This document shows positions 4,103 to 20,000 of a stretch of 20,000 nt of DNA, in pieces; the stretch's first letter is position 1; each line of letters starts with the position of its first letter. The notes beneath the pieces are model-generated. The model saw only the letters and a program-made list of their open reading frames with translations, ran no database searches and had not been told where the DNA came from. Position numbers and translations under genes: made by a program. This DNA comes from an uncultured virus (IMG/VR IMGVR_UViG_3300032116_000129) (taxonomy: Duplodnaviria > Heunggongvirae > Uroviricota > Caudoviricetes), in the IMG/VR virus record IMGVR_UViG_3300032116_000129. One strand, given 5' to 3'.

Positions 4103-4606
4103 TTATTTTTTATCTTTTATCGGACCGCCAGTTACCCAAGCGTCGCAAGTACGAGATCCAGCACACTTAAATTTAAGAAATGTGCAATATCCTAACTTTC
4201 CGGCTTCTATAGTATCCCAAGCGTCTTTTTCTGCTCCTTCAGTATCGTCTAATTCTGGTTCAGTTACTGGAGCGTCTTGCTCTTGCATTTCAGGTTCGGT
4301 GACTGGCACTTCTTCTTCGCCAGACGTAATACCTTTTTCAATACAACTAAGCATTCTAGAAGTAATGTTAAACGCTGCACAATTATTACAACGAGACGAC
4401 TTAGCTTCTTCCATAGAATCTAGTTGCCACTCTTCTGCTTTCTTTTTCCAAAATTTAATGTTTGGATTGTTTGGGTTTAAAGGGCCATAGCCGTATTCAT
4501 CAATAGCTTTTTGACGATGTTCAAGATTAACAGAAATGTCCTGCGTTGCCACAGGACACTTCATTTCTTCTTCAGCTTCTTTTAATAAATTAGCTAATTT
4601 AATCAT
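4103..4606 (-). CDS. Cys-rich putative metal-binding head protein with MIKLxxLLKE leader
   Basis: 167 aa. CNNC...GYC...KC...TCDAW cysteine pattern and leader MIKLANLLKEAEE. Confidence 0.75.
   Translation of the reverse strand: MIKLANLLKEAEEEMKCPVATQDISVNLEHRQKAIDEYGYGPLNPNNPNIKFWKKKAEEWQLDSMEEAKSSRCNNCAAFNITSRMLSCIEKGITSGEEEVPVTEPEMQEQDAPVTEPELDDTEGAEKDAWDTIEAGKLGYCTFLKFKCAGSRTCDAWVTGGPIKDKK
4253..4306 (-). repeat. Duplicated PVTEPE hexapeptide (36-nt period) in an acidic loop
   Basis: 4253-4270 and 4289-4306 both encode PVTEPE with synonymous differences. Confidence 0.8.
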
Positions 4607-4607
4607 A

Positions 4608-5546
4608 TTACTTAACTTTGATTATTGATTCTTTTAACATAGAGTCCATACGTTTATTTACTGACTCTTGTTTAAATGGAGGCATATAATTAAGCTCACC
4701 CGTCTTAGCAATATTTTGCCAATTTTTAGCGTCATCTGTCTGAGGCATTACGTCTCTTTTAGGAGCTCCGTCAACTGGCGTTGAAGTTTTTTGCATTTGT
4801 TGTACATTAGCCCAAATGTAATTAGCTGCTTGCTCTAAATTAGTTCCACTTAAATTATCAGCGTCTTTGTTACTGTTAACTTTAACGACACCAGCTTTAA
4901 CAAAAACTTTCATTACGTCTTTAGTAATAGTTTTTCTTACGTACTCTTTTAAATCAGCCTCAGAGATAGTAATTAAGTTTTTAGATCCTTTTGCAGTAGC
5001 CGTTGGCACTTTACCAATATCAGCAGCTATAGCTAATTGCGTTACCTTTAAAAAATCAACAGGTTTAGACACGGCTTTTGAATCCATATCAGTTACTGCA
5101 ATAGAAGCTTCTTTATTCATTGCATATAACTGAGACCATCTATGATGACCGTCGATAACGTATTGACCTTTAGCAGTTACTATACGTTTACCCGCAATTG
5201 CAACGGTTCCTCCTTTTAAGCATTGCATTGCAGATTTTGGGTTTGTTAATGGAAAACTTAACGATTTATCTAAGGCAATTTCATTTTGAGTAGGCCTTAA
5301 ATCTTGCACAGCAATAGCAGTATCTTTTAACGAGATAATTTCATCGGCAGGCTGACCATCTTCTTTACCTTTATTTAATAAAGCCTGAATTTTTGTATCT
5401 TGTGCATTAGAGCCTAATTGAGCTACAAATTTTTCATACGAACCTGCAGTTACGGTAGCCTTTAAATCTTCAGCTTCGTCTTCTTTAAGAAGTCCAGCTA
5501 ATTTTTGCAATCTAGCAGCTTCAACAATTAAATTATTTTTTTTCAT
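4608..5546 (-). CDS. ParB/sulfiredoxin-like domain protein, putative head-internal
   Basis: 312 aa. LRPTQ and YVIDGHHRW motifs typical of the ParB/Srx fold. Leader RLQKLAGLLKE. Confidence 0.75.
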   Translation of the reverse strand: MKKNNLIVEAARLQKLAGLLKEDEAEDLKATVTAGSYEKFVAQLGSNAQDTKIQALLNKGKEDGQPADEIISLKDTAIAVQDLRPTQNEIALDKSLSFPLTNPKSAMQCLKGGTVAIAGKRIVTAKGQYVIDGHHRWSQLYAMNKEASIAVTDMDSKAVSKPVDFLKVTQLAIAADIGKVPTATAKGSKNLITISEADLKEYVRKTITKDVMKVFVKAGVVKVNSNKDADNLSGTNLEQAANYIWANVQQMQKTSTPVDGAPKRDVMPQTDDAKNWQNIAKTGELNYMPPFKQESVNKRMDSMLKESIIKVK

Positions 5547-5564
5547 TATATTACGTTTAAATAG

Positions 5565-5831
5565 TTACCATGCTCTACAACTCCAATAACGTGCTTTCCA
5601 TCTTGGGCCTGGGTTGTCACAATTATGACGAGCTCGAAAAGATTTTCTTCTTTCAGGATTGTTCTTTTTAATTTTCATTCCTGGTTCTCCAAATCCTACT
5701 TTAACTACATTGCCTTTGTCATTGGTAACGTAAACAGCACGCTTTCTAGGACCTCCAGGAGTATAAAAAGGCTTACCTAATTTTACTTTACGGCCTCTGT
5801 ATTCAGCTTCTTTTATTTTTTCCTCTGAAAC
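5565..5831 (-). CDS. Start-less 88-codon basic Cys/Trp domain, likely a -1 frameshift extension of 5813..6220
   Basis: Manual translation: VSEEKIKEAEYRGRKVKLGKPFYTPGGPRKRAVYVTNDKGNVVKVGFGEPGMKIKKNNPERRKSFRARHNCDNPGPRWKARYWSCRAW*. It fills an otherwise 266-nt gap. There is no ATG/GTG/TTG before the internal Met. Confidence 0.8.
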   Translation of the reverse strand, partial: VSEEKIKEAEYRGRKVKLGKPFYTPGGPRKRAVYVTNDKGNVVKVGFGEPGMKIKKNNPERRKSFRARHNCDNPGPRWKARYWSCRAW

Positions 5832-6220
5832 TTTTTTTTTGATTCCATGTAAAGTTCGGTAGGCGACTCTTTAGGCATTTTTTGCTTTTTATCGTAGTCA
5901 CCCATTTTAATTCCTTTTTGTTGAGACTTTTCTCCAAATGCCATAGTCTCTAAATCTTTTTCCTCTGGCATTTCGGCTACTTCCTCATTCTCAAACCAAC
6001 CAGCTCTCATAGCAGCTTTATTCATAGCCTGAGCTACGTCATCTTGATCTTCATCAGGAAACTTTTCAAAAGCTAGCTCGTAGAAGTCGTCCCATTCATC
6101 TTCATCAACGAGTTTTTCTAGCTTCTTTTTGTTTTTATCAAAGAAGTCTGATATAGCATCATGAAGAGAAAGAACCTTTGGCTCTTCTGCTTCTTTTAAT
6201 AAATCTTTTAATTTAATCAT
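5813..6220 (-). CDS. Acidic hypothetical head protein with MIKLKDLLKE leader
   Basis: 135 aa. ATGA overlap with the upstream gene. Leader nearly identical to that of 4103..4606. Confidence 0.8.
   Translation of the reverse strand: MIKLKDLLKEAEEPKVLSLHDAISDFFDKNKKKLEKLVDEDEWDDFYELAFEKFPDEDQDDVAQAMNKAAMRAGWFENEEVAEMPEEKDLETMAFGEKSQQKGIKMGDYDKKQKMPKESPTELYMESKKKFQRKK
5831..5840 (-). other. Slippery site: A9G run containing in-frame A_AAA_AAG (5831-5837)
   Basis: The coding strand reads TCA AAA AAA AAG TTT. The -1 frame continues GTT TCA GAG GAA... for 88 codons. Confidence 0.6.
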
Positions 6221-6573
6221 TTCTTTAACTTTTTTAAAGTTTCAGTAACTACTCTACGAACTTGTTTACGTACAATATACTCTTGAATTTTATGATCTAA
6301 TAAATCATAAATGTCTTCATCTGGCTCAGTAGCTAATAAACGATGAAAGTTAGCATCTGCTGCTGCTAACACTTGCTCAGCAGCTTTTAACTCTCGGTTA
6401 AGTTTAATTAACTTTGGCTTAATTCTTTCTTTTCTAGTAGGATCTGTTTCAGATAAAAAAGCTTTTTTCATTACCATGATTTGCTTTTCCAATTCCTGTT
6501 TAGTTAACATAGCATTTTGTAATGCGTCTGTTGCCTTTTTAAGTTGTCTAGATACGTTAACGTTTGGTTCCAT
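6217..6573 (-). CDS. Coiled-coil hypothetical protein
   Basis: 118 aa, helical composition, TAATG and ATGA translational coupling at its ends. Confidence 0.75.
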   Translation of the reverse strand: MEPNVNVSRQLKKATDALQNAMLTKQELEKQIMVMKKAFLSETDPTRKERIKPKLIKLNRELKAAEQVLAAADANFHRLLATEPDEDIYDLLDHKIQEYIVRKQVRRVVTETLKKLKK

Positions 6574-7495: not shown

Positions 7496-9433
7496 TTACT
7501 TTCTAAAACTAGTTGCCAAACCACCTAAAATAAACTTACCTGTTATTTTAAACGGTTTACTGTATATAGATTTATCTCGTATAACAATACCTTCATGCTC
7601 TGTAACTGGACCTAACGGAGAAGTTAATTTTTCTAACACTGCATCCCCTAACTTCATAGTAGCCATGTAAATAGTAAATCCATCAATCGCTAACTGATAA
7701 TCTTTAGGATCTGCTACCCATTCTGATAAAGGAACTCCGTCAGCTATTTTAATTAACACTTCTTTAGAAAGTGCACCAATGTCTTTACCTTCTTTAGTTT
7801 TAATTCTAGAGTCTTTAGGATTAGTTGCCTTTGACAATAGAGTCTTAAGAGACTTAGTTACTTTTTTGTCAGGAGTTAAATTAATTGTATACGTTTTACT
7901 TAACGCTGCATCTAAATTAGGAGTACCTTCTAGTTTAGTAGGAACTGACCCTAACACTTCGTATCCTTGTTTACTAGCAACAGGAGTTAAGTTAATAATT
8001 AACTGCTTCATTACAGCTTTATTATAACTTTTTTCTGAAGTAGCTCTTTTAGTTGGAGTTACCTGCTTAATTTCTAATAAACCGTGAATAGCTAAAAAGT
8101 TCTTACCATAATTTAATACGTTAGTTGATCCTGCAACGTATTCAATATTAAACATAATATTTGGATTGTCCCAAAGACCTAATTTCTTTAAGTCTGAAGT
8201 AATAGCTGGTATAGCTTCGTTAAATATGTCTAACACTTTGCCACCTACTATAATCATTCCATGGCCAGCTCCAAATCGATCTTCTAGTTCTGCTTTGGTA
8301 ATACCTTTTACATCCAATGGTTTATTGGATCCTCTATCCATTACAAACGTCTTTCGACCGTCAATTTCTACTAACCGTATAGAAGCGTTTACGCCGTCTA
8401 TTTTAACCGATGCTGCTGTCTTGGATAAGTAATCCACTGATTTGTTAAAGACGGAAATTAAGTCGGTTCCGCTAGTAACTGTAGGTATATCAAAGGGGTG
8501 CGCCATATGTCCTCCAGCTCCTCCCTCTTTTAGCAACTGCTCATACATTGGTACTCCGTATACCGTTTTAGGAAATTGATTAAAATTATAAGCAAACTCT
8601 TTTCCTATTTGCTTACGAAGAAATGCTTTTAACTTTTCTATTTTAGCGTTATGTGCTTGAGCTTGCTCTGGAGTTGGATACCCTTCAGATACAGACTCTG
8701 GTACGCAATTAGGCACTTGCTTCTTTCCTTTCTTTTTCATTCCTACTTGTTTATAGCCGTCCCAGCAAGGGTCGCTATCTTCGTCTAGGTTTAACGACTC
8801 AGACCACCAGTCTTTAGTAAAAAGATTCATTTCAGATTTTATTTTTAGTTTGTCAAATACCAGTTTAGCAATTTCAGGATTCCATGTCCCAAAAACTCCT
8901 TTAAAAACTTTTTGCTGATTTTCAGAAGATAAGTCGCTGCTTAACAATTTACGTAAACTTGTTCCTGACATTTCACCATACCCAGGAACGTTTAACGACA
9001 CATGAGGCGCTACAAACAAGTATCCATGTTTATCGTATCCTTGTAAATTGTTTTTATTAGCTTCGTATGGTTTGTAAAACGATTCAGATCCGTCCTTTTT
9101 AGGTTTCATAGCAAACCGAGGATCTTCTCTCATATCTTTTTCTCCTACCATAAAAACAACAGCTGTTGTGTTAGGATCAAATTGTTGCAATATTTCTGTT
9201 GCAACGTAAGGTTGTTTAGTTAGCACAACGTCGTCTTGCAATCCATATAACGATAAAATTTGCTTTTTATCTTTAAATGTAAACGGAGATTTAGGAAATT
9301 CTACTTTGTCACTAGTTGCTATATATGTATTAGCCTGTCCGAATTTTTTCTGAAGAGCTCGGTAAGCAGTTTCGTGGTGCTTACCAAACGGTTGAAAACG
9401 TCCAGGATAAATTGCAATTACTTTTGATATCAT
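7496..9433 (-). CDS. Multidomain protein: HIGH-type (cytidylyltransferase/NMNAT-like) nucleotidyltransferase plus a C-terminal ATP-dependent ligase-like domain
   Basis: 645 aa. N-terminal YPGRFQPFGKHH and later MSGTSLR (SxTxxR-like). C-terminal VKIDG, NIEYV, EGIVIRD, FKITG. Confidence 0.7.
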   Translation of the reverse strand: MISKVIAIYPGRFQPFGKHHETAYRALQKKFGQANTYIATSDKVEFPKSPFTFKDKKQILSLYGLQDDVVLTKQPYVATEILQQFDPNTTAVVFMVGEKDMREDPRFAMKPKKDGSESFYKPYEANKNNLQGYDKHGYLFVAPHVSLNVPGYGEMSGTSLRKLLSSDLSSENQQKVFKGVFGTWNPEIAKLVFDKLKIKSEMNLFTKDWWSESLNLDEDSDPCWDGYKQVGMKKKGKKQVPNCVPESVSEGYPTPEQAQAHNAKIEKLKAFLRKQIGKEFAYNFNQFPKTVYGVPMYEQLLKEGGAGGHMAHPFDIPTVTSGTDLISVFNKSVDYLSKTAASVKIDGVNASIRLVEIDGRKTFVMDRGSNKPLDVKGITKAELEDRFGAGHGMIIVGGKVLDIFNEAIPAITSDLKKLGLWDNPNIMFNIEYVAGSTNVLNYGKNFLAIHGLLEIKQVTPTKRATSEKSYNKAVMKQLIINLTPVASKQGYEVLGSVPTKLEGTPNLDAALSKTYTINLTPDKKVTKSLKTLLSKATNPKDSRIKTKEGKDIGALSKEVLIKIADGVPLSEWVADPKDYQLAIDGFTIYMATMKLGDAVLEKLTSPLGPVTEHEGIVIRDKSIYSKPFKITGKFILGGLATSFRK

Positions 9434-9470: not shown

Positions 9471-12400
9471 TTATCTTTGAAACTCTATACTACCATTTTC
9501 TGCAGTCATACGCCGCGTTGCCGTAATTGTGACATACTTTACGAAATTTGATATAGTAGGGGTTGTAGCGAGATTTGTTGTGTTTTGCATCTGTAATACT
9601 AATTTAACAGTTTTTCCTCCTCCGTTGCCAATTCCCCATGAAGAACTAGGAAATGTAATATGCGAGTCTTGATCCATCGTCCACCAAATAGATCTAGCAT
9701 TAGTCCCAAGCAATGATAATTCTTTAGTACTACTAGTACCTCCGGCAATCCAATTATCGTATCTAGCGTCGCTATTCTGCAGCGACCCTGAATCGGCAGC
9801 GTACATTTGAAATCTTACCTGACCTTTATTATTTGTACTAGTAGCAGATCCTGAAACGTAATGATTGAATGATATTAATAGATGCGTTTCATACGGTAAT
9901 AAATGAAATACAAACGTACCTTTATCAATCCAACCGGTATCGTCTGACGTTGATATTAAACTATATTCAGTTGATATAGTAGCGGCAACTTGTCGACCTA
10001 AATTAAAAAAGTCTGCATATCCTTCATCGGTGTTAATATTTGTATATAACGGATTGTTTCCTATTTTTGTGCGAATTAACAAAGACGACCCTGATATTGT
10101 TCCATTAGATTTTAAATCTAATGCAGCTATCGATTGCGTAACGTTAGTTGTTGAGTATATTCGAGATGCGTCTAATGCAAATCCACCTATTTTTCCTCCG
10201 TCAAATAATACATCTGATCCTGTAATTTGTCCATTACTCTTAAGTATTAAATTATTTCCAGTATCGTTTATTTGAGTTGAAGTTAATGCAAATCCACCAA
10301 CAGTACCTCCGTTAAATAAAACGTTAGATCCAGTTATTGTACCATCCTGCTTAACATTAAATCTTGATGAAGATATAAAAAATGCAGATGCAGGGGTACC
10401 TCCTACAGAGCTTGATATAAAGAAAGTCGAACCTGCAGTAAATGCGTCATTTGAAAGAGTAAATGAACCTATTCTACCACCGTTAAAAAACACGTTTGAA
10501 CCTGATACTGTTCCATCTTGTCTTACATTAAATCGGCTACTGCTTATAAAGAATGCTGACGCTGGGGTACCGCCTACTGATGAAGATATAAAAAATGTAC
10601 TTCCTGCTGTCAATGCATCGTTAGTTAAAGCAAATGAGCCGATTCTTCCTCCAGTAAATAATACTTGAGATCCAGTTACATTTCCATTTGCCTTTACATT
10701 AAAATTAGAAGCTGATATAAAAAATTGATTGCCGGTAGCAGATCCTGATATAAAGAAGTTTGTGCTATTGGATAGAGTATCTCCGCTTATTGTAAATCCA
10801 GCAATAGTATTCAACGATCCTATGCTAACTAATCTAGTATTACCTGAATTGTAAATTTCTAAGTTATCTCCGGTGAACTGCATACGAGCACCGCCTTGAT
10901 CCCCTACACGGAAATTGTTAGTGGTATCTTTGCTCATGTATATACCATCACCATTAGTGAAACTAGTAGCGCCTCCTAATTCAATTTCACCGGCAGTTGT
11001 GTTTACTGCAAAGTTTGTAGCGGTTAGTGAACTCGCTCCTATTGTAAACCCTCCAATAGTACCACCGTTAAATAGTACATTGCTACCAGTTATTTGACCT
11101 GAACTTTTTAATACTAAATTATTACTAGCATCGTTTATTTGAGTTGAAGATAGCGTAAACCCACCAACCGTTCCTCCAGTAAATAATACACTTGAACCAG
11201 TTACGTTTCCGTTAGCTTTTACGTTGAAATTAGAGGCAGATATAAAGAAATTGTCTCCAGAAGCTGCCCCTGATATAAAGAAGTTTGTACTACTTAAAGC
11301 GTTACTGCTTATATTAAATCCACCAATGTTACCCGCAGTTGCAGTTACTGTTCCGGCCATTGTTACGTTACCAGCAGTGTCTAAATGAAAGTTGCTTGAA
11401 GAAATTCTAATATTACCGCCTGAACCTGATATATACTGATTAGCTCCACCTAATAAAAAGCTAGGAGTAAGTAATTCAGTGCTAGATCCAGATACTCGCA
11501 AATTAGTACCGTCCCAAGAAAACTCTGGATTAACATCGCCTCCTAACTTAAATGTACCATTGTTAAGATTAAATTCTGATCCAACGGATCCTCCGGTAGT
11601 CCAATTCGTTGATTGAATCTTACCAGTTTGAATCATGTTACCAGTTATTTTAGTGAATCCGTCATGATACGCTTCTTGAGCGCTATCTCTGCGATACAAC
11701 AAATCTAATAATTTAATTGAAGCTGATGGGTTCAATCCTCGATTCAATTCTCTAGCATTAGTATGTACCCACCTTCCGCCTCTAGGATTTGTTGCATAAA
11801 ACGCTACATATGCCGCAGTGGTATTGGATTCAGGGACTGCATCAGGCTGAGTAGAACCTGATATTGCTAATGGCACGCAAGTACTTGCACCATTCATATT
11901 AGTTTTTAAGCGCGTTGGTAAATTACCAGAATCACCTTCAGACGCAGTATAAAAAGACGTCCAGCCAAAGCCTATAGGATCGTTCGGTGATATACCGCCT
12001 ATACCAGTTGCTAGCGACGATGAAGTAAAATTACCATTTGTTGACTTTGCAGATGCAGCTATTATTGGCCATTCCGATCCGGCAGATCCTGTAGTATTAC
12101 TAGTAGTCGTGTCATTTCCTGTTGAAAATACTGAATATCCAGCGTCAAATAAATCTAATATTAATTTTGCTTTAGTGTTAGCTCCTAAAAATCCATAATC
12201 AAATACATACAAATCATATGACGAGCTAATATCAGATATTGTATCAGATCCTGTTACGGTGGATGTTAATGCACTTGGAAATCCATGACGCGTAAATATT
12301 ACATTTGTATTAGTATTGAATACCGTTGCGCCTGAACCAGATGATATCAACGCAGTAACGTAAGTCGATTTATCTCGTAACGAGGCAAAATCTTCTGTAT

Positions 12401-15400
12401 TAGTTACTGTTATGTCTCCGGTTATACTTAATGTAGTACCGTCCCAAGACAATTTATCTTTAAGTGATAATTGACCGGTATTGTCTACGTAAAATCCAGT
12501 ATTACTGTTATTAAATGTACCAGTTCCTGTAAATAATTTATTAGATTGTATATTAATACCTCCTATCGCACCAGCTGTTGCAGTTACTGTTCCAGCCATT
12601 GTTACGTTACCTGCAGTATCAAGATGGAAATTACTCGATGATATTCTTATCAATCCTCCTGATCCTGATATATACTGATTAGTGCCTCCTAAAAAGAAAC
12701 TAGGCGTTAATATTCGAGCAGATGATCCTGATACTGTTAAATTAGATCCATCAAACTTAAATGCATCACCTATACGAATCGATCTACCGGTTATATCTAC
12801 ATTTGGACTTGATAGCGAAAATCCGCCACGGGTAAACGTTAAATGACTTCCAGAATTGTCTATAAGACCAAAACTGCCACCACCTTTTAAATCAAATGCT
12901 CCGGGTGTTGTAGAATCGTACGCAGCAACAGAATAAAATTCCATTGTTGATGATGTTGGCAAGGTCCATATGGCTGGGTATAAGCTGGCAGTGTTATTAG
13001 TACCAGTGCTTCCGGTTGCAAACGGAGTCGTATAATTTTCGTTTTTATATACTTCATACTGAGTTCCAGATGAAGCTAATGGTTTCATTATTAACTTGTA
13101 TGTATCTCCAACTGTAACGGTAGTATCTAACACCGTTCTTTGAGTATTCCCTTCCCATATTAGTAAGTTTCCGTTAGTAAAATAAAAAGCGTGCACGTTA
13201 CCGGCGTAGTTGGTAGTTCCTGCATCTTCGGTAACGCCTAGCATCATTCTAGGCGACTGGTTTGTAACACCGCCAATTTCAAGTACTTTTGTATGAAACT
13301 CAAACACCGGTGAGTTGGCTCGTTGAAATGCTTTTTTACCTACAATAGCATAGTCCCATTGCGCATCATTGTTTTCTAAACGAAGAGCTCCACTCACAAT
13401 TCTAGCCTTCTCTCCAGCGTTGTTACTGTTATTATACCATAACGTAGAGTCTAACTCTGTACCGTTAAACGTGTCTAAAAATGCAGAACCGCCATTTAAC
13501 GCTCCTGCTACCCCATTTATATTAATGCTTCCAAATTTACCAATACCTGAACCAGTAAATGCTATTTCAGCAGCATCGTATGTTGTATCGCCTAGTAATA
13601 TTTGTTGATTGGTAGCATTTAGTGTTACATTTCCTGAACTTAACTTATCACTGTCTACTGTCCATCCAGCTATTTTTCCTCCGGTAAATAATACACTAGA
13701 ACCGGTTACGTTTCCATTTGCTTTAACATTGAAATTAGAAGCTGATATAAAGAATTGATTACTCGTTGCTGCTCCAGATATAAAGAAATTCGCACTACTT
13801 AATGCATTACTGCTTATATTAAATCCGCCAATGTTACCTGCAGTTGCTGTAACGGTACCTGCCATAGTAACATTGCCGGCAGTGTCTAAATGGAAGTTGC
13901 TTGATGATATTCTAATGTTACCGCTTGAACCAGAAATATATTGATTAGTACCTCCTAAAAAGAAATTCGGAGTTAGTATTTGAGCACTAGAACCTGATAC
14001 TCGTAGATTGGATCCGTCCCATAAGAAACTAGGATTAACATCTCCACCTAATTCAAATGTACCGTTATTCAAATCAAACATTGATCCGACTGTACTTCCA
14101 ACTGCCCAATTAGATGACATTAAACGGCCTGTCTTTATACTATCCCCATCAATTACAGTTTTACCTCCTCCTAATTGAGCGTTTCCTAAGTATATAGACT
14201 CAATTTCAGCATCTGTTAACGAGCCAGTGTATATACGAAATTCACTGAGTATTGTTTGGTTAGTATTTTCTCTAAAGACTCTTAAAGTTAAATCTGGAGC
14301 AGCAATAAATCCTGTAACTGGCACTCCAGCTGCTGTAAAAGTAGCTGTTTTAATTCTAACTCCGTTAACGTATAATTTTAGTGAATTAGCAGCAAAATCA
14401 GAAACAAATCCAATATGATAATTTGATCCAGTAATAAAATATCCAGCATCTGACGCTACAGATGGAAATACAGTTCCAGTACTTCCCTGTGCATTCCAAA
14501 CAAATTGCAAAGTAGGGTGCGCTCTTAATGCAGTGAAATCACTTGAATTTTCTATTCTAAAGTTATTAGAACCAGACACGTTACCAAAAGCGGTGCTAGA
14601 GGTAACTGCAAAAGCTAATATATCTCGATAATCTCCTAAAGGCGTTGTTGGTGTGTACCAAAAACACATTGTAAACTGTGCTGATGTGAGCGCGTCTTTA
14701 ATTGCTGAGCTAGTTACTGGTCTTATGTTTGATCCTCCGCCATCTCTTGCAGCAAATCCAGCTATTGTACCTGATCCTGATACAATTGTCGGGGCAATTG
14801 CATATGAACTAGTACCTGGACAATTTCCAGAAGCGTCAATAAAATTCAACGAATCCAATGGATAATATGCTAACAGCTTTTCTGCTGCCGGAGCATGCGG
14901 TATGCTACCTACTTCAATTTTACCTGAGAAGTAGCCATTGGTTGTATATAATCCATTGCCTGTAATAGTTCCAGCCGGTCCAAAGTTAGTGTCGTTGATA
15001 CCGGTTAAGTTACCCATTACCAACGTTGAGCTAGATATTTGAGTTGAAGTTAAAGTAAATCCGCCTATAGTACCTCCATTAAATAGTACATTTGAACCAG
15101 TTATTGTTCCATCTTGCTTAACATTAAATCGACTGCTGCTTATAAAAAATGCAGATCCAGGTGTACCAGATACTGAACTTGATATAAAAAATGTACTTCC
15201 TGCAGTGAATGCGTCGTTTGTTAACGTAAATGATCCAATCTTACCACCAGTGAATAAAACGTTTGATCCAGTTACGTCTCCATTACCTTTAATGTTAAAT
15301 TTAGATGATGAAATAAAGAATCCAGTAGATGTAGCTGATCCTGATAAATAAAATCCAGAACCAGTTATTGCGTCAGATGTAATAGCAAATCCTCCAATAG

Positions 15401-18400
15401 CTCCTGCAGTAGCAGTTACAGTTCCGACTACGTTTACAGATCCACTGAATAAAGCTGATGAAGCAGTTACATCGCCATTAGCTTTTACATTAAATTTTGA
15501 TGAAGATATAAAGAAATCATTACCAGTAGCAGATCCTGATATAAAGAAATTACTAGCGTTTGATAGAGTATTATTGCTTATAGTAAATCCTGCTATTTTA
15601 CCTCCAGTAAATAAAACATTAGATCCAGTTATTTGACCAGAATCTTTTAATAGTAAAGTTGCACCGCCTACATCGGCTATTTGAGTACTTGTTATATTGA
15701 ATCCACCTACTTTACCACCGGTGAATAACACCTGAGAGCCAGTAACATCGCCATTTCCTTTAATGTTAAATCTACTAGATGATAAGAAAAACGAAGTTCC
15801 GTTGTTAGTTGCAGATCCACTCAAATAAAATCCAGAGCCGGTTATTGCACTATCCGTAATAGCAAATCCACCAATGTTACCATCATTTGCATTTATTGTT
15901 CCTGATATAGATAATGTAGTTCCATTCCAGGATAATTTATCTTTAAGTGATAATTGGCCATTACTATCTAAATAAAATCCAGTATTACTGTTATTAAATG
16001 TACCCGTGCCTGTAAATAATTTACTAGACTGCATATTGATACCACCAATACTTCCAGTATTAGCAATAATCCCTCCCTGCAAAAATACGTTATCGGTTGC
16101 TAATCCAAATCCAGGATTGCTGTTTCCAAATACATAGCTACTATTTGCTAGACCCGATAAATCGCCTAATCGAGCTTTTAACTTAACATCATATATACCG
16201 CTGCCAGTTCTTTCAACAATGTCAATATATGGTGTAGTTTGATCATTTGGGTTAGCGTTTATACGAATAAATCCAGTTCCAATCTTACCAGTTGACACAA
16301 TTACTTGAGATGGCGAGTAGCTTTGTGCTTGGTTTGGCATATCTCCTAAACTTCCGCTATCTCCACTCACCCCATTTCCATAGCTTCTCGTAACGTAAAG
16401 TATGCCAGAAAAGTCGGTATCACTGCTAGGATTAAGACGCATGGTATCTCTTACTTGGAAATACTCAGTTGCAAATCCTGAATTATCAACTTTTTTAGCT
16501 GATAAAATTTCTCCATTAATGAATCCAGTTACGTTGTCAATTTGTATTGCAGGAGTGCCTGCTTCAATACTACCTGTAAAGTAAGATCCGCTATATATTG
16601 TTTGTATTTCAGCGGCTGATAGCGATCCGGTATAGAGACGCACATCTGCAATGTATCCTGGGAATCGCTCTGAATATGATCTGCCAACGCCTATGTTTAT
16701 AGGTGAGGTGTTTACTTTACTAAAAAGATTTACACTTGCAGAAGTAGCGTTACTTGTTAGGCCACTTTGAATTCCATCTACATATACTGTACGAGTGTAA
16801 TTAGCACCGTCAGGCGCAACTGTCAGTGCTATATGAGTCCATGTATTATTACGTAGTACGTTAGAGCGATCAAAACTACTAAAATCTGATTCATTTCCGG
16901 TACTAATACGCAATGATGCAGTTGTGCTAGATTGCACAACAAATCCTATATAAAACGGACCACGTAATGAGCTAGCTACAATAGAACTCGATTTTTCTAA
17001 TATAGATCCGGTTGGCGTACTCGATGTATACGAGCTAAAATTAGGACGTACCCAAGCCATTACAGTAAGACTAGCAGATTCAGCAGTTGTAATACCTGAT
17101 AATTGCGCCGGAACCGCTGCGGTAGCCCCAACTGTATGCGACCCAGAGGCTATTAACAATCCAGTGCCACCAATTGGTTTAAAAGTTTGAGTTGATGTTG
17201 GTAAATTAGCAATTGATGCAGTTACTAGACTAGCTATCGTTACATAGGTATTACCACTTCCTGCAATGTTTTGAATTGCGTTTGATCCCGAATATCCTCC
17301 GAACTTTAAATATACTAGTTGTGGTATTGATGTCGTAGCTTCTGATCCAGTAATTGTTGATGAATTAGCAACGTATAACTGACCTCCAACTGCATTTACT
17401 GTTTCTTTTTCAAATACTGCAGTTTTAAGCGTTCCTCTTATTCTTACATTCTCAAATTCAGCAAATCCATTATCTACTGCAGATATCTTCCAGCCTGTTT
17501 GATTTGATGCGTAGTCTGCAGTTTGCAGGGAACCTGCACTGTCAATTATAATATTTGTACCAGTAATTTTAGTAGAGTCAATAGTAAATCCACCTACTTT
17601 ACCTCCATTAAATAAAACATTTGATCCAGTTATCTGGCCGGAATCGCCTCGAAGTATTAAAGAGTTATTACTAGAAGATATTGCTGTACTAGTTATAGCG
17701 AACCCTCCTATAGTACCCGCGGTAGCTGTTATCGTACCTGACATTCTAACATTTCCATTTCGATCTAAATGAAAGTTGCTAGATGATATTTCTATATTAC
17801 CATTAGATCCGGATACGAATTGATTTGCGCCTCCTAAGAAAAATGTCGGAGTTAATATTCTTGTTGTTGAGCCTGAAATTAATAAATCAGTTCCATTCCA
17901 TTGAAATGAATCTTTTAAAGAAAATTGTCCAGAATTATTAACAAGAAACGAAGTATTTGAGTTACCATATGTGCCAGTGCCGATATAAATTTTATCTGAT
18001 GCTAGTGTTAGACCGCCTATTTTCCCTCCTGTAAATAATACTTGTGATCCTGTTATATCTCCGTCAGAAGTAACTTTAAATCTTGATGAAGATATGTAAT
18101 ACCCATTTAATCCTCCGCCAGCTAAACGTAATTTATCGTCGCTTGATCTTAAATAAGTAGATTCGATATTCCACCCTCCGATTAAACCTGCAGATGCCGT
18201 GACAGTACCTTGAAATACTGCTCCAGATGCAAATAATACTCCACTACTAGAAACAGAAAAATTAGGTCCAAATTTAACGTAATATTTATTTGTTCTAGAT
18301 TGTCCTTCGTTAGGGGTAAAATCAATATAATACTCGTCAGCTAATATGTCAAATGGAGCTGTAGTATCACTTCCTGGGCCCTTATTGCTCATATATAAAG

Positions 18401-20000
18401 CTGCTCCCGCAGCATCTAACGTAGCATTACTACCGCTTAATTTATCTCCTATAATTGTCCATCCAGCAATTTTACCTCCATCAAATAACACCTGCGATCC
18501 TGTAATCGTACCGTCTTGTTTAACGTTAAATTTACTTGAAGATATAAAAAACGAAGTTCCGGGCACCGCCCCTACAGAGCTTGATATAAAGAAAGTCGAT
18601 CCTGCTGAAAATGCATCATTTGATAATGTAAACGATCCTATTTTACCACCGTTAAAAAATACATTACTACCAGATACTGTACCGTCTTGTCTTACATTAA
18701 AACGAGATGACGATATAAAGAATGATCCTGAAGGATTAGAACTATTATATGAGCTTGATATAAAGAAATTGTTGCTATTAGAAAATGCATCGTTTGTTAA
18801 GGTAAACGATCCAATTCTACCACCAGTAAATAAAACATTGCTACCAGTAATATCACCGTTGCCTTTAACATTAAATCTAGAAGCTGATATAAAAAATCCT
18901 GTTGATGTAGCCGATCCGGAAATAAAGAAATTATTTCCAGACAATGAATGTGATGTAATAATAAATCCTCCAATATTACCGGCTGTTGCAGTTATTGTAC
19001 CTGCCATTATTACATCGCCAGAAGATGATAAAAAGAAATTACTAGATGAAATTTGTATTAATCCATCGGCCCCGACTATATATTGACGACTACTTCCTAA
19101 AAAGAATTTATTTGTGCGAATATCTAACAAACCACTTCCAGAAGTTGTATATCGTAAATACGATTCTGAATGAGCAGTTAATTCTAATCCAATACCGCGG
19201 TAATTTTCAGTTTGATTACTATTAAGCATAGTTGCAACTGATCCGGAATACATAATAAATCCTGGTTGGCCATTCGCTCCATTCGCTACTACATTTTGAA
19301 ATCCTTCATACCCAACAGAACGAATAAATGCTCCGTCATTTGATCCTTCAATTGATACTCCTGTGCCAGTTTGACCTGCTACGTATATAGAACCAGTAAT
19401 TAAATTATCATCTCCTCCAATATATACATTACCACCCGGCATTCCTACGTCTTTGACATATAATACCTGTTTACTTACAGCATCTGCAAAATTTAAAAAT
19501 TGAAATTTTAAATCAAATTTATCGTTACGATGCACAGTTGGTAACGGAACTATTATAGAAGCTGACTCAGGCGTATATCCAAACTCAGATGCTTGATCTG
19601 TAATATCTGTTTCACTGGCTAAAACATATTCGCCAACGCCAACACTTTTATAAAAAGTTCGTATTTTAGTAATATTACCTACTTGAGGAGTTAATCCAGA
19701 AAACGATGCTGATATAATAGTATACGTGTTTTCAGAGCTAGCAGTTGAAGCGGTTTGTTCGAAATATAAACTACCTGTTGTACCAGTACCGTTTATAAAC
19801 GTATGAACTTGAGTAGACCCTTGTATACTAGATTCAAACGGAAAATCAATAGTAAAAATTGTTGTTGACCCAGTACTAATATAATCAATAACAGATCCTG
19901 ACAAAGTTTGTGTTATTAACGTTAAATTATTATCAGGATTAGGTCTTCCTGTAAACTTAGAACGTGATACTTCAAATACACCGGCGCCGTTAATATAAAT
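9471..20000 (-). CDS. Giant repeat-rich tail fibre/adhesin-like structural protein with LamG-like domains (5' partial, at least 3509 aa)
   Basis: The frame stays open upstream of the track's TTG at 19904 (IYINGAGVFEVSRSKFTGRPNPDNNLTLITQTL). G/S/T/N-rich, with many GGxIGGFxI and FFISSSxFNVKxxG repeats. Confidence 0.85.
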   Translation of the reverse strand: MYINGAGVFEVSRSKFTGRPNPDNNLTLITQTLSGSVIDYISTGSTTIFTIDFPFESSIQGSTQVHTFINGTGTTGSLYFEQTASTASSENTYTIISASFSGLTPQVGNITKIRTFYKSVGVGEYVLASETDITDQASEFGYTPESASIIVPLPTVHRNDKFDLKFQFLNFADAVSKQVLYVKDVGMPGGNVYIGGDDNLITGSIYVAGQTGTGVSIEGSNDGAFIRSVGYEGFQNVVANGANGQPGFIMYSGSVATMLNSNQTENYRGIGLELTAHSESYLRYTTSGSGLLDIRTNKFFLGSSRQYIVGADGLIQISSSNFFLSSSGDVIMAGTITATAGNIGGFIITSHSLSGNNFFISGSATSTGFFISASRFNVKGNGDITGSNVLFTGGRIGSFTLTNDAFSNSNNFFISSSYNSSNPSGSFFISSSRFNVRQDGTVSGSNVFFNGGKIGSFTLSNDAFSAGSTFFISSSVGAVPGTSFFISSSKFNVKQDGTITGSQVLFDGGKIAGWTIIGDKLSGSNATLDAAGAALYMSNKGPGSDTTAPFDILADEYYIDFTPNEGQSRTNKYYVKFGPNFSVSSSGVLFASGAVFQGTVTASAGLIGGWNIESTYLRSSDDKLRLAGGGLNGYYISSSRFKVTSDGDITGSQVLFTGGKIGGLTLASDKIYIGTGTYGNSNTSFLVNNSGQFSLKDSFQWNGTDLLISGSTTRILTPTFFLGGANQFVSGSNGNIEISSSNFHLDRNGNVRMSGTITATAGTIGGFAITSTAISSSNNSLILRGDSGQITGSNVLFNGGKVGGFTIDSTKITGTNIIIDSAGSLQTADYASNQTGWKISAVDNGFAEFENVRIRGTLKTAVFEKETVNAVGGQLYVANSSTITGSEATTSIPQLVYLKFGGYSGSNAIQNIAGSGNTYVTIASLVTASIANLPTSTQTFKPIGGTGLLIASGSHTVGATAAVPAQLSGITTAESASLTVMAWVRPNFSSYTSSTPTGSILEKSSSIVASSLRGPFYIGFVVQSSTTASLRISTGNESDFSSFDRSNVLRNNTWTHIALTVAPDGANYTRTVYVDGIQSGLTSNATSASVNLFSKVNTSPINIGVGRSYSERFPGYIADVRLYTGSLSAAEIQTIYSGSYFTGSIEAGTPAIQIDNVTGFINGEILSAKKVDNSGFATEYFQVRDTMRLNPSSDTDFSGILYVTRSYGNGVSGDSGSLGDMPNQAQSYSPSQVIVSTGKIGTGFIRINANPNDQTTPYIDIVERTGSGIYDVKLKARLGDLSGLANSSYVFGNSNPGFGLATDNVFLQGGIIANTGSIGGINMQSSKLFTGTGTFNNSNTGFYLDSNGQLSLKDKLSWNGTTLSISGTINANDGNIGGFAITDSAITGSGFYLSGSATNNGTSFFLSSSRFNIKGNGDVTGSQVLFTGGKVGGFNITSTQIADVGGATLLLKDSGQITGSNVLFTGGKIAGFTISNNTLSNASNFFISGSATGNDFFISSSKFNVKANGDVTASSALFSGSVNVVGTVTATAGAIGGFAITSDAITGSGFYLSGSATSTGFFISSSKFNIKGNGDVTGSNVLFTGGKIGSFTLTNDAFTAGSTFFISSSVSGTPGSAFFISSSRFNVKQDGTITGSNVLFNGGTIGGFTLTSTQISSSTLVMGNLTGINDTNFGPAGTITGNGLYTTNGYFSGKIEVGSIPHAPAAEKLLAYYPLDSLNFIDASGNCPGTSSYAIAPTIVSGSGTIAGFAARDGGGSNIRPVTSSAIKDALTSAQFTMCFWYTPTTPLGDYRDILAFAVTSSTAFGNVSGSNNFRIENSSDFTALRAHPTLQFVWNAQGSTGTVFPSVASDAGYFITGSNYHIGFVSDFAANSLKLYVNGVRIKTATFTAAGVPVTGFIAAPDLTLRVFRENTNQTILSEFRIYTGSLTDAEIESIYLGNAQLGGGKTVIDGDSIKTGRLMSSNWAVGSTVGSMFDLNNGTFELGGDVNPSFLWDGSNLRVSGSSAQILTPNFFLGGTNQYISGSSGNIRISSSNFHLDTAGNVTMAGTVTATAGNIGGFNISSNALSSANFFISGAATSNQFFISASNFNVKANGNVTGSSVLFTGGKIAGWTVDSDKLSSGNVTLNATNQQILLGDTTYDAAEIAFTGSGIGKFGSININGVAGALNGGSAFLDTFNGTELDSTLWYNNSNNAGEKARIVSGALRLENNDAQWDYAIVGKKAFQRANSPVFEFHTKVLEIGGVTNQSPRMMLGVTEDAGTTNYAGNVHAFYFTNGNLLIWEGNTQRTVLDTTVTVGDTYKLIMKPLASSGTQYEVYKNENYTTPFATGSTGTNNTASLYPAIWTLPTSSTMEFYSVAAYDSTTPGAFDLKGGGSFGLIDNSGSHLTFTRGGFSLSSPNVDITGRSIRIGDAFKFDGSNLTVSGSSARILTPSFFLGGTNQYISGSGGLIRISSSNFHLDTAGNVTMAGTVTATAGAIGGINIQSNKLFTGTGTFNNSNTGFYVDNTGQLSLKDKLSWDGTTLSITGDITVTNTEDFASLRDKSTYVTALISSGSGATVFNTNTNVIFTRHGFPSALTSTVTGSDTISDISSSYDLYVFDYGFLGANTKAKLILDLFDAGYSVFSTGNDTTTSNTTGSAGSEWPIIAASAKSTNGNFTSSSLATGIGGISPNDPIGFGWTSFYTASEGDSGNLPTRLKTNMNGASTCVPLAISGSTQPDAVPESNTTAAYVAFYATNPRGGRWVHTNARELNRGLNPSASIKLLDLLYRRDSAQEAYHDGFTKITGNMIQTGKIQSTNWTTGGSVGSEFNLNNGTFKLGGDVNPEFSWDGTNLRVSGSSTELLTPSFLLGGANQYISGSGGNIRISSSNFHLDTAGNVTMAGTVTATAGNIGGFNISSNALSSTNFFISGAASGDNFFISASNFNVKANGNVTGSSVLFTGGTVGGFTLSSTQINDASNNLVLKSSGQITGSNVLFNGGTIGGFTIGASSLTATNFAVNTTAGEIELGGATSFTNGDGIYMSKDTTNNFRVGDQGGARMQFTGDNLEIYNSGNTRLVSIGSLNTIAGFTISGDTLSNSTNFFISGSATGNQFFISASNFNVKANGNVTGSQVLFTGGRIGSFALTNDALTAGSTFFISSSVGGTPASAFFISSSRFNVRQDGTVSGSNVFFNGGRIGSFTLSNDAFTAGSTFFISSSVGGTPASAFFISSSRFNVKQDGTITGSNVLFNGGTVGGFALTSTQINDTGNNLILKSNGQITGSDVLFDGGKIGGFALDASRIYSTTNVTQSIAALDLKSNGTISGSSLLIRTKIGNNPLYTNINTDEGYADFFNLGRQVAATISTEYSLISTSDDTGWIDKGTFVFHLLPYETHLLISFNHYVSGSATSTNNKGQVRFQMYAADSGSLQNSDARYDNWIAGGTSSTKELSLLGTNARSIWWTMDQDSHITFPSSSWGIGNGGGKTVKLVLQMQNTTNLATTPTISNFVKYVTITATRRMTAENGSIEFQR
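10310..10652 (-). repeat. Tandem 57-aa (171-nt) repeat, two copies
   Basis: GGRIGSFxLxNDAxTAGSTFFISSSVGGTPASAFFISSSRFNVxQDGT occurs twice. The anchor ggggtacc lies at 10393 and 10564. Boundaries approximate. Confidence 0.85.
14185..14885 (-). other. LamG/concanavalin A-like domain 2 within the giant protein
   Basis: LLAYYPLD...FTMCFWY...YHIGFV...LYVNG...LSEFRIYTGSLTDAEIESIY. Boundaries approximate. Confidence 0.75.
16580..17325 (-). other. LamG/concanavalin A-like domain 1 within the giant protein
   Basis: LTVMAWVRP...WTHIALT...VYVDG...FPGYIADVRLYTGSLSAAEIQTIY. Boundaries approximate. Confidence 0.8.

What the first reader, a model, noticed from the sequence alone, without database searches (positions are those of the whole stretch)
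5565..6220. Hidden gene segment joined to its upstream gene by a -1 shift at A_AAA_AAG
Seen: the 135-aa ORF ends ...TCA AAA AAA AAG TTT CAG AGG AAA AAA TAA. Its -1 frame has no canonical start before an internal Met, yet encodes 88 protein-like codons ending RRKSFRARHNC...ARYWSCRAW and fills the largest gap in a tightly packed operon. Known: A_AAA_AAG is the bacterial -1 slippery heptamer of E. coli dnaX and IS3-family elements, and A9 runs can also cause transcriptional slippage. Inference: two products are made, a 135-aa acidic protein and a ~218-aa fusion with a very basic, possibly nucleic-acid-binding domain. An IKE|AE site just after the junction could let the prohead protease release that domain, so frameshifting would set cargo stoichiometry. 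I see no strong stimulatory hairpin. Alternatives are a homopolymer sequencing error, or an ATA start after GAGGA.
Basis: partly seen in the sequence, partly recalled or inferred. Interest (0 to 1): 0.85.

Follow-up and report, generated by a model that had tools for sequence, protein, structure and literature searches.

The report
Slippery A-run splits phage protein gene
A run of nine A's splits a phage gene into an acidic front half and a strongly conserved basic back half, so the back half can only be made when the polymerase or the ribosome slips at that run.

Summary
On the minus strand a 135-aa ORF (5813-6220) ends TCA AAA AAA AAG TTT CAG AGG AAA AAA TAA. Its -1 frame stays open to 5568 and has no ATG, GTG or TTG before the conserved part.

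That frame encodes a real domain: 78 aa, pI 11, phrog_7595, 4249 database relatives. It is under strong purifying selection (dN/dS 0.01-0.14).

Among 47 distinct related ORF1-ORF2 regions, 31 carry both halves in one frame. Sixteen, falling in at least six or seven lineages, have the back half in the -1 frame. None of the 16 has a canonical start codon. Among 110 protein clusters, 48 are fused and 53 stop just after the KKK.

The A-run is kept almost everywhere, in frame or not, although AAG is common at other Lys codons.

An assembly error, an own start codon and a dead gene are all unlikely. The mechanism is not settled. I found no stimulatory structure, and A9 is a classic RNA-polymerase slippage tract, so transcriptional slippage is at least as likely as -1 ribosomal frameshifting.

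The conserved [ILV]-x-E before the domain, a shared MIKL..LLKE N-terminus and a T4-type prohead protease in a relative fit a processed capsid-internal protein. This is a new member of a known kind.

The parts
5813..6220 (-). ORF1, 135 aa, with its stop. An acidic, mostly helical N-terminal module (residues 11-126: pI 4.4, net charge about -16).
   Evidence: Relatives in 17+42+30 loci. Helices with pLDDT about 88 at residues 19-72 of the L007 homologue.
6191..6220 (-). N-terminal decapeptide MIKLKDLLKE, with L at position 8 and E at position 10. Candidate capsid-targeting or propeptide signal ending in L-x-E.
   Evidence: Shared 11 of 13 with the N-terminus of the unrelated 167-aa ORF at 4103..4606. 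Conserved in relatives. The T4 CTS is the first 10 aa, with processing determinants at residues 8 and 10 (review text). Function is inferred.
5832..5840 (-). A9 homopolymer, encoding the wobble base of Ser and the K-K-K of ..ESKKK. This is the slippage tract.
   Evidence: A run of 8 or more A's is present in 45 of 47 distinct relatives.
5831..5837 (-). A_AAA_AAG heptamer, in phase with ORF1 (P-site AAA, A-site AAG).
   Evidence: read directly from the sequence. The same phase holds in all 16 shifted relatives.
5568..5831 (-). -1 frame coding segment, 88 codons, read from the G of AAG. The stop is at 5565-5567.
   Evidence: In the related pair L018/L020, coding constraint in this frame starts at the first base after the run: 11 synonymous and 1 non-synonymous differences.
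5802..5816 (-). I-K-E-A-E, an instance of the conserved [ILV]-x-E|A-E motif just before the domain. Candidate prohead-protease site.
   Evidence: (19 of 19 sequences). The gp21 motif is L/I-X-E. Cleavage is inferred, not shown.
5568..5801 (-). Conserved basic domain, 78 aa, pI 11.1, net charge about +18. Predicted as four strands followed by two helices. Function unknown.
   Evidence: No fold match.
6217..6573 (-). Upstream 118-aa gene, whose stop overlaps ORF1's start (ATGA). In some relatives it is fused in frame to ORF1.
   Evidence: L017, L019; G002 31544-32248, 234 aa.
4103..4606 (-). 167-aa ORF that starts MIKLANLLKEAEE, the same N-terminal signature as ORF1.
   Evidence: Its homologue in G002 starts MIKLVDLLKEDE.

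Best explanation
The two ORFs are one gene interrupted at a slippery homopolymer.

Standard decoding gives the 135-aa acidic protein. A slip at the A9 / A_AAA_AAG tract (5831-5840) gives a 218-aa protein, in which the acidic module is joined through ..ESKKK-VSEEKIKEAE.. to a very basic 78-aa domain.

The slip can be either of two events:
- RNA polymerase adds one A, so the mRNA carries A10 and is read normally.
- The ribosome moves back one base on A_AAA_AAG.

Both give the same protein. I rate the polymerase route somewhat more likely to carry most of the flux, because there is no stimulator and the run is exactly 9. Both may contribute.

Inferred, not shown: the protein is a head-internal (packaged) protein of a phage with a T4-type head module. 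It would be targeted and processed through L/I-x-E sites, after residue 10 and just before the basic domain. The tract would then set how much basic domain is made relative to the acidic module.
For: (1) Same protein in relatives. Of 47 distinct ORF1-ORF2 regions, 31 are continuous ORFs and 16 are shifted, all with ORF2 in the -1 frame. Of 110 protein clusters, 48 are fused and 53 end within 16 aa after KKK.

(2) ORF2 is translated. dN/dS is 0.01-0.14 for all 45 pairs. This includes shifted-shifted pairs: WIN-L010 has dS 1.04 and dN 0.066, and L038-L043 has Sd 36 of 51.5 sites and Nd 5 of 182.5 sites.

(3) Constraint in the ORF2 frame begins at the first base after the run: L018 versus L020 has 11 synonymous and 1 non-synonymous differences.

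(4) No own start. None of the 16 shifted sequences has ATG, GTG or TTG before the domain. L043, L058 and L063 have no near-cognate codon after the run either.

(5) The shifted state is real DNA.
- It is identical in the window, L005, L006, L022 and run X3.
- The L010 type comes from 7 IMG/VR records and 4 metagenome contigs. Some of these are the same contig held in both collections (for example L014 and L029).
- L009 keeps the shift with TCG+A8.
- The state changes at least 7 times on the tree, 6 of them forced by well-supported branches.

(6) The tract is kept at the nucleotide level.
- All 23 in-frame phase-1 sequences read AAA AAA AAA.
- AAA makes up only 0.80 of Lys codons (966 of 1202).
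- Other KKK sites in the same genes are uninterrupted A9 in only 5 of 38 cases.

(7) Published precedents, from passages of PMC5009743 and PMC3711429.
- Runs of 9 A/T slip efficiently in bacterial transcription.
- A_AAA_AAG is the most shift-prone heptamer tested in E. coli.
- dnaX exists in both frame configurations.

(8) Head-protein reading.
- PF03420 is found at E 9e-31 on relative contig G002.
- The window holds a T4-like portal and terminase.
- The motif and the shared N-terminus are conserved.
- Many distant homologues carry acidic N-extensions that start MKTF...
Against: - No RNA or protein data. The one RNA run laid (X20) did not cover the junction.
- All read evidence is from assembled contigs, which hide minor length variants.
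- No downstream hairpin or pseudoknot. The 102 nt after the site fold worse than shuffles (z +1.36). The 60-nt windows in 10 shifted lineages have z from -2.4 to +0.7 with no common structure. A purely ribosomal shift would therefore be weak.
- A near-identical strain carries A10 and a continuous 218-aa ORF (X12; P0127 at 98% identity). The tract therefore also varies in DNA, and frequent toggling could keep ORF2 under selection without any recoding.
- One protein (P0126) has a tail matching the third frame. The states are therefore not strictly limited to 0 and -1.
- The host, its tRNA-Lys set and the transcribing polymerase are unknown.
- The capsid-internal reading rests on short motifs, and the protease was found on a relative's contig, not in the window.
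Confidence: 0.72

Rival explanations
1. Strictly programmed -1 ribosomal frameshifting of the E. coli dnaX type. tRNA-Lys slips on A_AAA_AAG and polymerase slippage contributes nothing meaningful.
For: The heptamer is in phase in all 16 shifted sequences. It is retained in L009, where the run is only A8. All 16 DNA-level shifted states, including the A11 variant L027, place ORF2 in the -1 frame. A_AAA_AAG is highly shift-prone where a single tRNA-Lys reads both codons.
Against: The phase follows automatically from losing one A, so it is not independent evidence. No stimulatory structure was found and I saw no consistent SD-like element upstream by eye. The run is kept at 9, longer than a heptamer needs, including in in-frame lineages. 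A9 is sufficient for polymerase slippage. P0126 suggests a state that -1 frameshifting cannot rescue.
Confidence: 0.25
2. DNA-level phase variation only. The tract gains and loses an A during replication, so the population mixes fused (ON) and split (OFF) genomes. The window is an OFF variant that makes no basic domain.
For: A9 and A10 occur in near-identical strains (X12; P0127). The frame state flips at least 7 times on the tree. About half of the 110 protein clusters are in each state. Poly-A tracts are known phase-variation sites.
Against: Shifted states are the assembled consensus in many samples. They are shared by diverged pairs (L038/L043 with synonymous sites saturated; L009, L010 and L030) while ORF2 stays intact. 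Phase variation does not explain why the tract sits at A9 rather than longer. It also does not exclude slippage in RNA, which an A9 run is expected to cause in any case.
Confidence: 0.13
3. Assembly or sequencing error. The true run is A10 and the gene is simply continuous.
For: Homopolymers of 9-10 are error-prone. A10 variants exist. Only contigs could be inspected, not raw reads.
Against: The same A9 is seen in L005, L006, L022 and run X3 for the window type, and in 7 IMG/VR records and 4 metagenome contigs for the L010 type (some the same contig in both collections). L009 is shifted with A8 behind TCG. None of the 23 N+A9 in-frame sequences shows A8 or A10, which random length errors should produce. 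Fifty-three of 110 protein clusters are split.
Confidence: 0.05
4. The basic domain is a separate gene, started at the ATA after GAGGA or by termination-reinitiation at a near-cognate codon.
For: In the window, GAGGA lies 5 nt before ATA, and ATA overlaps the TAA stop. Stand-alone 79-aa homologues that begin just before the domain exist in other phages, for example Aegir gp13.
Against: The ATA position is the conserved hydrophobic residue of [ILV]-x-E. It is ATT, ATC, CTA, CTT or TTA in other shifted lineages. Three shifted sequences have no near-cognate codon after the run. In L020 a conserved 48-codon insert directly after the run would be lost.
Confidence: 0.05

Closest known systems
dnaX tau/gamma of Thermus thermophilus (transcriptional slippage on a run of 9) and the two-ORF dnaX genes with poly-A runs
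   Same: A run of 9 A/T inside a gene. One N-terminal part yields two products. There are nearby stops in the other frames. Orthologues exist both as one ORF and as two ORFs joined by the run. Source: passages of PMC5009743 and PMC3711429.
   Different: Here the gene is a phage protein of unknown function. In the window the long product needs the slip. No RNA evidence is available.
E. coli dnaX -1 programmed ribosomal frameshift at A_AAA_AAG
   Same: The same heptamer in the same phase. The second Lys codon is AAG.
   Different: dnaX has an upstream SD-like element and a downstream stem-loop (recalled). No downstream structure was found here. In E. coli dnaX the shift shortens the protein, whereas here it lengthens it.
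T4 internal proteins IPI, IPII and IPIII with their capsid targeting sequence, processed by prohead protease gp21
   Same: A short N-terminal peptide with a hydrophobic residue at position 8 and Glu at position 10. A basic mature part. L/I-x-E sites. A T4-type head module with a gp21-like protease in a relative.
   Different: No sequence similarity to the T4 proteins was tested or shown. The acidic module and the recoding joint have no T4 counterpart that I know of. Presence in virions is untested.
Poly(A)-tract frameshifts rescued by polymerase infidelity in Buchnera and Blochmannia; 'compensatory' frameshifting
   Same: Genes interrupted at A-runs remain under selection because slippage restores the frame. 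These are mentioned in PMC5009743.
   Different: Here the tract is also conserved in the uninterrupted relatives. That points to use rather than mere tolerance.

Membership tests
-1 programmed ribosomal frameshift site (dnaX / IS3 type) | Slippery heptamer X_XXY_YYZ in phase with the upstream ORF | tested here: met
   A_AAA_AAG at 5831-5837, in phase. The same holds in all 16 shifted relatives.
-1 programmed ribosomal frameshift site (dnaX / IS3 type) | Downstream stimulatory stem-loop or pseudoknot at a short spacing | tested here: not met
   102 nt fold at -14.1 kcal/mol, z +1.36. The 60-nt windows of 10 shifted lineages show no shared structure. Pseudoknots were not modelled.
-1 programmed ribosomal frameshift site (dnaX / IS3 type) | Upstream SD-like stimulator about 10 nt before the site | tested here: inconclusive
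   By eye only, on the junction sequences. The upstream context is GA(A/G)TC, with no consistent GGAG-type element at about 10 nt. The host's anti-SD sequence is unknown.
-1 programmed ribosomal frameshift site (dnaX / IS3 type) | -1 ORF conserved, under purifying selection and lacking its own start | tested here: met
Programmed transcriptional slippage (T. thermophilus dnaX type) | Homopolymer of about 9 or more A/T at the frame junction | tested here: met
   A9 at 5832-5840. Among the 47 distinct relatives, 40 have A9, 3 have A10, 1 has A11, 1 has A8 and 2 have no run.
Programmed transcriptional slippage (T. thermophilus dnaX type) | mRNA population with extra or missing A's relative to the DNA | not testable with these tools
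   The RNA run X20 gave contigs only, and none crossed the junction.
Programmed transcriptional slippage (T. thermophilus dnaX type) | Tract conserved at the nucleotide level beyond what the protein needs | tested here: met
   All 23 in-frame phase-1 sequences are AAA AAA AAA, against 5 of 38 at other KKK sites. The AAA share of Lys codons is 0.80. Relatedness of the sequences inflates these counts; by my count on the tree there are about 15 lineages.
T4-type capsid-internal protein with a capsid targeting sequence | N-terminal propeptide of about 10 aa ending L/I-x-E and shared between otherwise unrelated proteins | tested here: met
   MIKLKDLLKE. Shared 11 of 13 with the 167-aa ORF. The criterion comes from the text of PMC9026906.
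T4-type capsid-internal protein with a capsid targeting sequence | gp21-type prohead protease encoded by the phage | tested here: inconclusive
   PF03420 at E 9e-31 on relative contig G002. The window ends before that position. G001 and G003 are fragments with no match.
T4-type capsid-internal protein with a capsid targeting sequence | Protein present in virions, cleaved at the predicted sites and ejected with the DNA | not testable with these tools
   Needs virion mass spectrometry.
phrog_7595 (uncharacterised phage protein family) | Significant profile match over the whole profile | tested here: met
   E 5.9e-12, profile positions 3-96 of 96.

The most novel reading that the evidence does not exclude
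The A9 tract is a selected, high-efficiency RNA-polymerase slippage joint that makes the genomic reading frame almost irrelevant. Whether a lineage carries the fused or the split configuration, it produces both the acidic module alone and the acidic-basic precursor. That would explain why the family flips between configurations at least seven times and sits near 50:50 in nature while never losing the run. The ratio would set how much of a DNA-binding cargo domain, charge-neutralised by its acidic partner and released by the prohead protease, is loaded into the capsid.
Probability: 0.3. Interest if true: 0.7.

Novelty: new member of a known kind. Interest (0 to 1): 0.55.

Why it matters
Gene callers miss this domain in about half of the family. 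The ESM Atlas holds ORF2 only from its internal Met, and 53 of 110 protein clusters stop at the KKK. An abundant phage domain with 4249 relatives is therefore systematically truncated or lost in annotations of freshwater phages.

Biologically, this is a clean natural series in which one gene exists in fused and split forms joined by the same homopolymer. Such a series is useful for measuring how much polymerase and ribosome slippage contribute in uncultured phage-host systems. It also allows a test of whether recoding sets the stoichiometry of packaged proteins.

The principle itself, slippage at A-runs and two configurations as in dnaX, is already known.

Tried and rejected
- Function of the basic domain. 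No Pfam match at E <= 0.01. The AlphaFold model has pLDDT 81. It gave no Foldseek PDB match at E <= 0.001, and the best VIA-align Z was only 2.1, to cyanovirin. I draw no conclusion about the fold. The ESM Atlas gave only unnamed clusters.
- ORF1 had no match in the phage record collection.
- The full-length model of the in-frame homologue L007 was poor (pLDDT 58, pTM 0.31). I used it only to note confident helices at residues 19-72 and a low-confidence linker at 114-135.
- RNA evidence. Run X20 covered 5497-5717 and 6334-6566 but not the junction, so it says nothing either way.
- The window's own assembly is not held. G001 is a 13.4-kb fragment with no protease match.
- No tRNA genes were found in the window or in G002, so there is no clue to Lys decoding.
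- I first argued that only the 0 and -1 frame states occur. That holds for the 47 DNA sequences, but P0126's tail fits the third frame, so I dropped the argument.
- The dN/dS pairs of L054 with sequences other than L044 are misaligned by an indel in the domain and were ignored.
- Literature. Searches found reviews on T4 heads and on recoding. They found no paper on this gene or domain. This does not show that none exists.

Full report
**What is there**

All genes in the window run on the minus strand.

- ORF1 (5813..6220, 135 aa) ends ...GAA TCA AAA AAA AAG TTT CAG AGG AAA AAA TAA.
- The run of nine A's is 5832-5840. The in-phase heptamer A_AAA_AAG is 5831-5837.
- The frame at -1 relative to ORF1 is open from 5870 to a stop at 5565-5567.
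- Read from the G of AAG, that frame gives 88 codons: VSEEKIKEAEYRGRKVKLGKPF...RRKSFRARHNCDNPGPRWKARYWSCRAW.
- It has no ATG, GTG or TTG before an internal Met at codon 41 of the conserved 78-codon domain.
- A -1 shift, or one extra A in the mRNA, gives 130 + 88 = 218 aa.

**The -1 frame is a real protein domain**

- It matches phrog_7595 at E 5.9e-12 across the whole profile.
- It matches 27 phage records by tblastn. These include phages of Pelagibacter, Roseobacter, Flavobacterium and Methylophilales.
- It matches 4249 proteins of 44-142 aa in the large protein collection. None of the 120 listed has a Pfam domain or an informative name.
- The conserved part starts at Tyr (EAE-YRGRKV).
- In other phages the domain stands alone (79 aa, Aegir gp13). 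It also forms the C-terminus of longer proteins of 105, 133 and 185 aa with acidic N-terminal extensions.
- It is very basic (pI 11.1, net charge about +18). ORF1 residues 11-126 are acidic (pI 4.4, net charge about -16).
- An AlphaFold model built on a 48-sequence alignment is fairly confident (pLDDT 81). It shows four strands followed by two helices.
- It has no convincing structural neighbour. What the domain does remains unknown.

**Relatives show one gene with a joint at the A-run**

- Three scans with ORF1 or its alignment returned 89 loci. Many are the same contigs fetched twice.
- With the window that makes 90 records. Of these, 85 hold both parts, and they collapse to 47 distinct ORF1-ORF2 regions.
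- In 31 of the 47, the two parts form one continuous ORF:

| Configuration | Count |
|---|---|
| non-A base + A9 + G | 23 |
| TCA + A9 (A10) | 3 |
| A9 + C | 2 |
| in frame with a 60-aa insert (L079) | 1 |
| no run | 2 (one of these, L023, has an in-frame TAA instead) |

- In 16 of the 47, the basic domain is in the -1 frame: 14 with TC+A9+G like the window, L009 with TCG+A8+G, and L027 with TCT+A11+G. None is in the +1 frame.
- A wider protein-level sample gives the same picture. Of 110 clusters related to ORF1, 48 contain the basic domain, 53 end within 16 residues after a KKK, and 9 are partial or different.
- P0127 is 98% identical to ORF1 and is a fused 218-aa protein.
- P0126 (95% identical) has a tail that matches the window's third frame. 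At least one genome therefore seems to carry one A too many rather than one too few.

**The split state is not an artefact and not a dead gene**

- The window's A9 is reproduced without any difference in a contig of run X3 at depth 12.3. X3 has the same organism label and year as the runs flagged as the possible source.
- Run X9, from another study, has a roughly 91%-identical variant with no indel at the tract.
- Run X12, from yet another study, has a variant with 3 mismatches in 193 bases and one extra A, which puts it in frame. These are assembled contigs, so minor variants are invisible.
- The L010-type shifted sequence comes from 7 IMG/VR records and 4 metagenome contigs. Some of these are the same contig held in both collections (for example L014 and L029).
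- The domain is under strong purifying selection in every comparison (45 pairs, dN/dS 0.03-0.14). This includes pairs in which both members are shifted.
- L038 and L043 are both shifted and are sisters on the tree. They differ at 36 of 51.5 synonymous sites but only 5 of 182.5 non-synonymous sites.
- In the pair L018 (in frame) and L020 (shifted), the 48 codons that begin at the first base after the run differ by 11 synonymous changes and 1 non-synonymous change in the ORF2 frame. The other two frames are full of stops.
- None of the 16 shifted sequences has a canonical start before the domain.
- The window's ATA corresponds to the conserved hydrophobic residue of the motif described below. 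In other shifted lineages that codon is ATT, ATC, CTA, CTT or TTA.
- On a maximum-likelihood tree of 44 sequences, the frame state changes at least 7 times, 6 of them forced by well-supported branches. Three sequences were left out for incomplete coverage. L023 was set aside in the count.

**The tract itself is conserved**

- The linker around it varies in length and sequence. Even so, 45 of 47 distinct sequences carry a run of 8-11 A's at this spot, and 40 of them have exactly A9.
- All 23 in-frame phase-1 sequences spell KKK as AAA AAA AAA. By my count on the tree they fall into about 15 lineages.
- AAA makes up 0.80 of Lys codons in these genes (966 of 1202).
- The other conserved KKK sites in the same genes are uninterrupted A9 in only 5 of 38 cases.
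- In the in-frame lineages both alternative frames stop within 0-9 codons after the run. A slip there would yield the acidic module alone.

**Mechanism**

The fusion is shown only by comparative evidence. How it is made is inferred.

For a ribosomal -1 shift:
- The heptamer is in phase and is kept in L009 despite A8.
- All DNA-level shifted states are -1.

Against a purely ribosomal shift:
- The 102 nt after the site fold worse than shuffled sequence (z +1.36).
- Ten shifted lineages share no structure.
- I saw no consistent SD-like element upstream by eye.
- The phase is an automatic consequence of losing one A.

For RNA-polymerase slippage:
- Bacterial polymerase slips efficiently on runs of 9 A or T.
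- T. thermophilus dnaX uses exactly this to make about half of its product in another frame.
- dnaX genes exist in both one-ORF and two-ORF forms with poly-A runs of 7-10 (passages of PMC5009743; PMC3711429).

Both routes give the identical 218-aa protein, so only RNA sequencing or reporters can separate them.

My odds are 0.72 that the basic domain is expressed as a fusion by slippage at this tract. Within that, I rate polymerase slippage as the larger contributor somewhat above the ribosome. The main rival is pure DNA-level phase variation (0.13). Assembly error and an own start each get about 0.05.

**What the protein may be (inferred)**

- The window holds a T4-type portal (PF07230, E 2.6e-73) and large terminase.
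- The 42-kb contig of a shifted relative (G002) has the same gene order. It also has a T4 gp21-type prohead protease (PF03420, E 9.2e-31) a few genes after the portal.
- According to a review, gp21 cleaves after Glu in L/I-X-E (PMC9026906, passages).
- The same review says the capsid targeting sequence of T4 internal proteins is their first 10 residues, with processing determined at residues 8 and 10.
- It also says that T4 relatives carry diverse basic proteins with such N-termini.
- ORF1 begins MIKLKDLLKE, with L at position 8 and E at position 10.
- The otherwise unrelated 167-aa ORF at 4103..4606 begins MIKLANLLKEAEE, which is 11 of 13 identical.
- The basic domain is preceded by [ILV]-x-E-A-E-Y in 19 of 19 aligned full-length relatives. 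The same holds in most distant homologues I looked at.
- In some lineages the upstream 118-aa gene is also fused in frame through ..L-T-E-A.. or ..L-N-E-A...

No cleavage, packaging or DNA binding has been tested. The T4 peptide sequences themselves are recalled, not retrieved.

**Comparison and novelty**

- It works like dnaX, either the E. coli or the Thermus version. It is not a member of that gene family.
- The features of a stimulated -1 frameshift site are only partly met: the heptamer yes, the stimulators no.
- The sequence features of a transcriptional slippage site are met, but the RNA evidence is missing.
- My three literature searches found no paper on this gene or domain.
- I class it as a new member of a known kind.
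- It has one interesting extra. The tract is kept in both configurations, and the family sits near half fused and half split.

Noticed in passing
window 4103-4606 (-) and 6191-6220 (-): Two otherwise unrelated ORFs start with nearly the same 13 residues, MIKLANLLKEAEE and MIKLKDLLKEAEE. Neighbouring genes in relatives also start MIKL..LL.E. This looks like a shared targeting or processing peptide.
   Followed up: partly
L023 (metagenome contig), junction region: The sequence is identical to L024 in the tree columns, but the junction reads AAA AGA AAA GAA TAA instead of AAA AAA AAA GAT TTA. That is three clustered changes that break the run and create an in-frame stop with no way into the domain.
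   Followed up: no
L018, L020 and L060, directly after the A-run; L079: Some lineages carry an extra module of about 40 aa with two Cys pairs (..DPSCWDGYK..GKRVNNCV..) between the run and the basic domain. L079 instead has a 60-aa insert (..KVGDIIHFKDGEDWKVMKV..). The joint appears to be a place where modules are swapped.
   Followed up: partly
window 6217-6573 (-); G002 31544-32248; L017, L019: In several relatives the upstream 118-aa coiled-looking gene is fused in frame to ORF1. In the window it is a separate gene with an ATGA stop-start overlap.
   Followed up: partly
window 9471-20000 (-): A giant ORF of at least 3509 aa runs off the window. It has Laminin_G_3 / ConA-like lectin domains (E 5e-25) and is probably a fibre or adhesin.
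   Followed up: no
window 4608-5546 (-): The 312-aa protein just downstream has a weak ParB-like nuclease match (PF08857, E 0.0014, below the cut-off) with a DGHHR motif. Its N-terminus, MKKNNLIVEA..AGLLKEDE, also contains [LIV]-x-E motifs.
   Followed up: no
window 5568-5700 (-), ESM Atlas record: The Atlas holds ORF2 only from its internal Met. Its nearest clusters are 41-46-aa 'hypothetical proteins' with up to 257 members. This suggests that gene callers routinely truncate the domain in split genomes.
   Followed up: no
protein P0126 (95% identical to ORF1): Its C-terminal tail SFRKSNRRS matches the window's third frame (SFRGKNKRS). That implies a relative with one A more than the in-frame length. 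The DNA could not be fetched.
   Followed up: partly
window 7496-9433 (-): The 645-aa protein has an N-terminus like nucleotidyl- or cytidylyltransferases (GRFQPFGKHH; phrog_395, E 6.6e-4). It also has a short region that matches many uncharacterised PHROGs.
   Followed up: no
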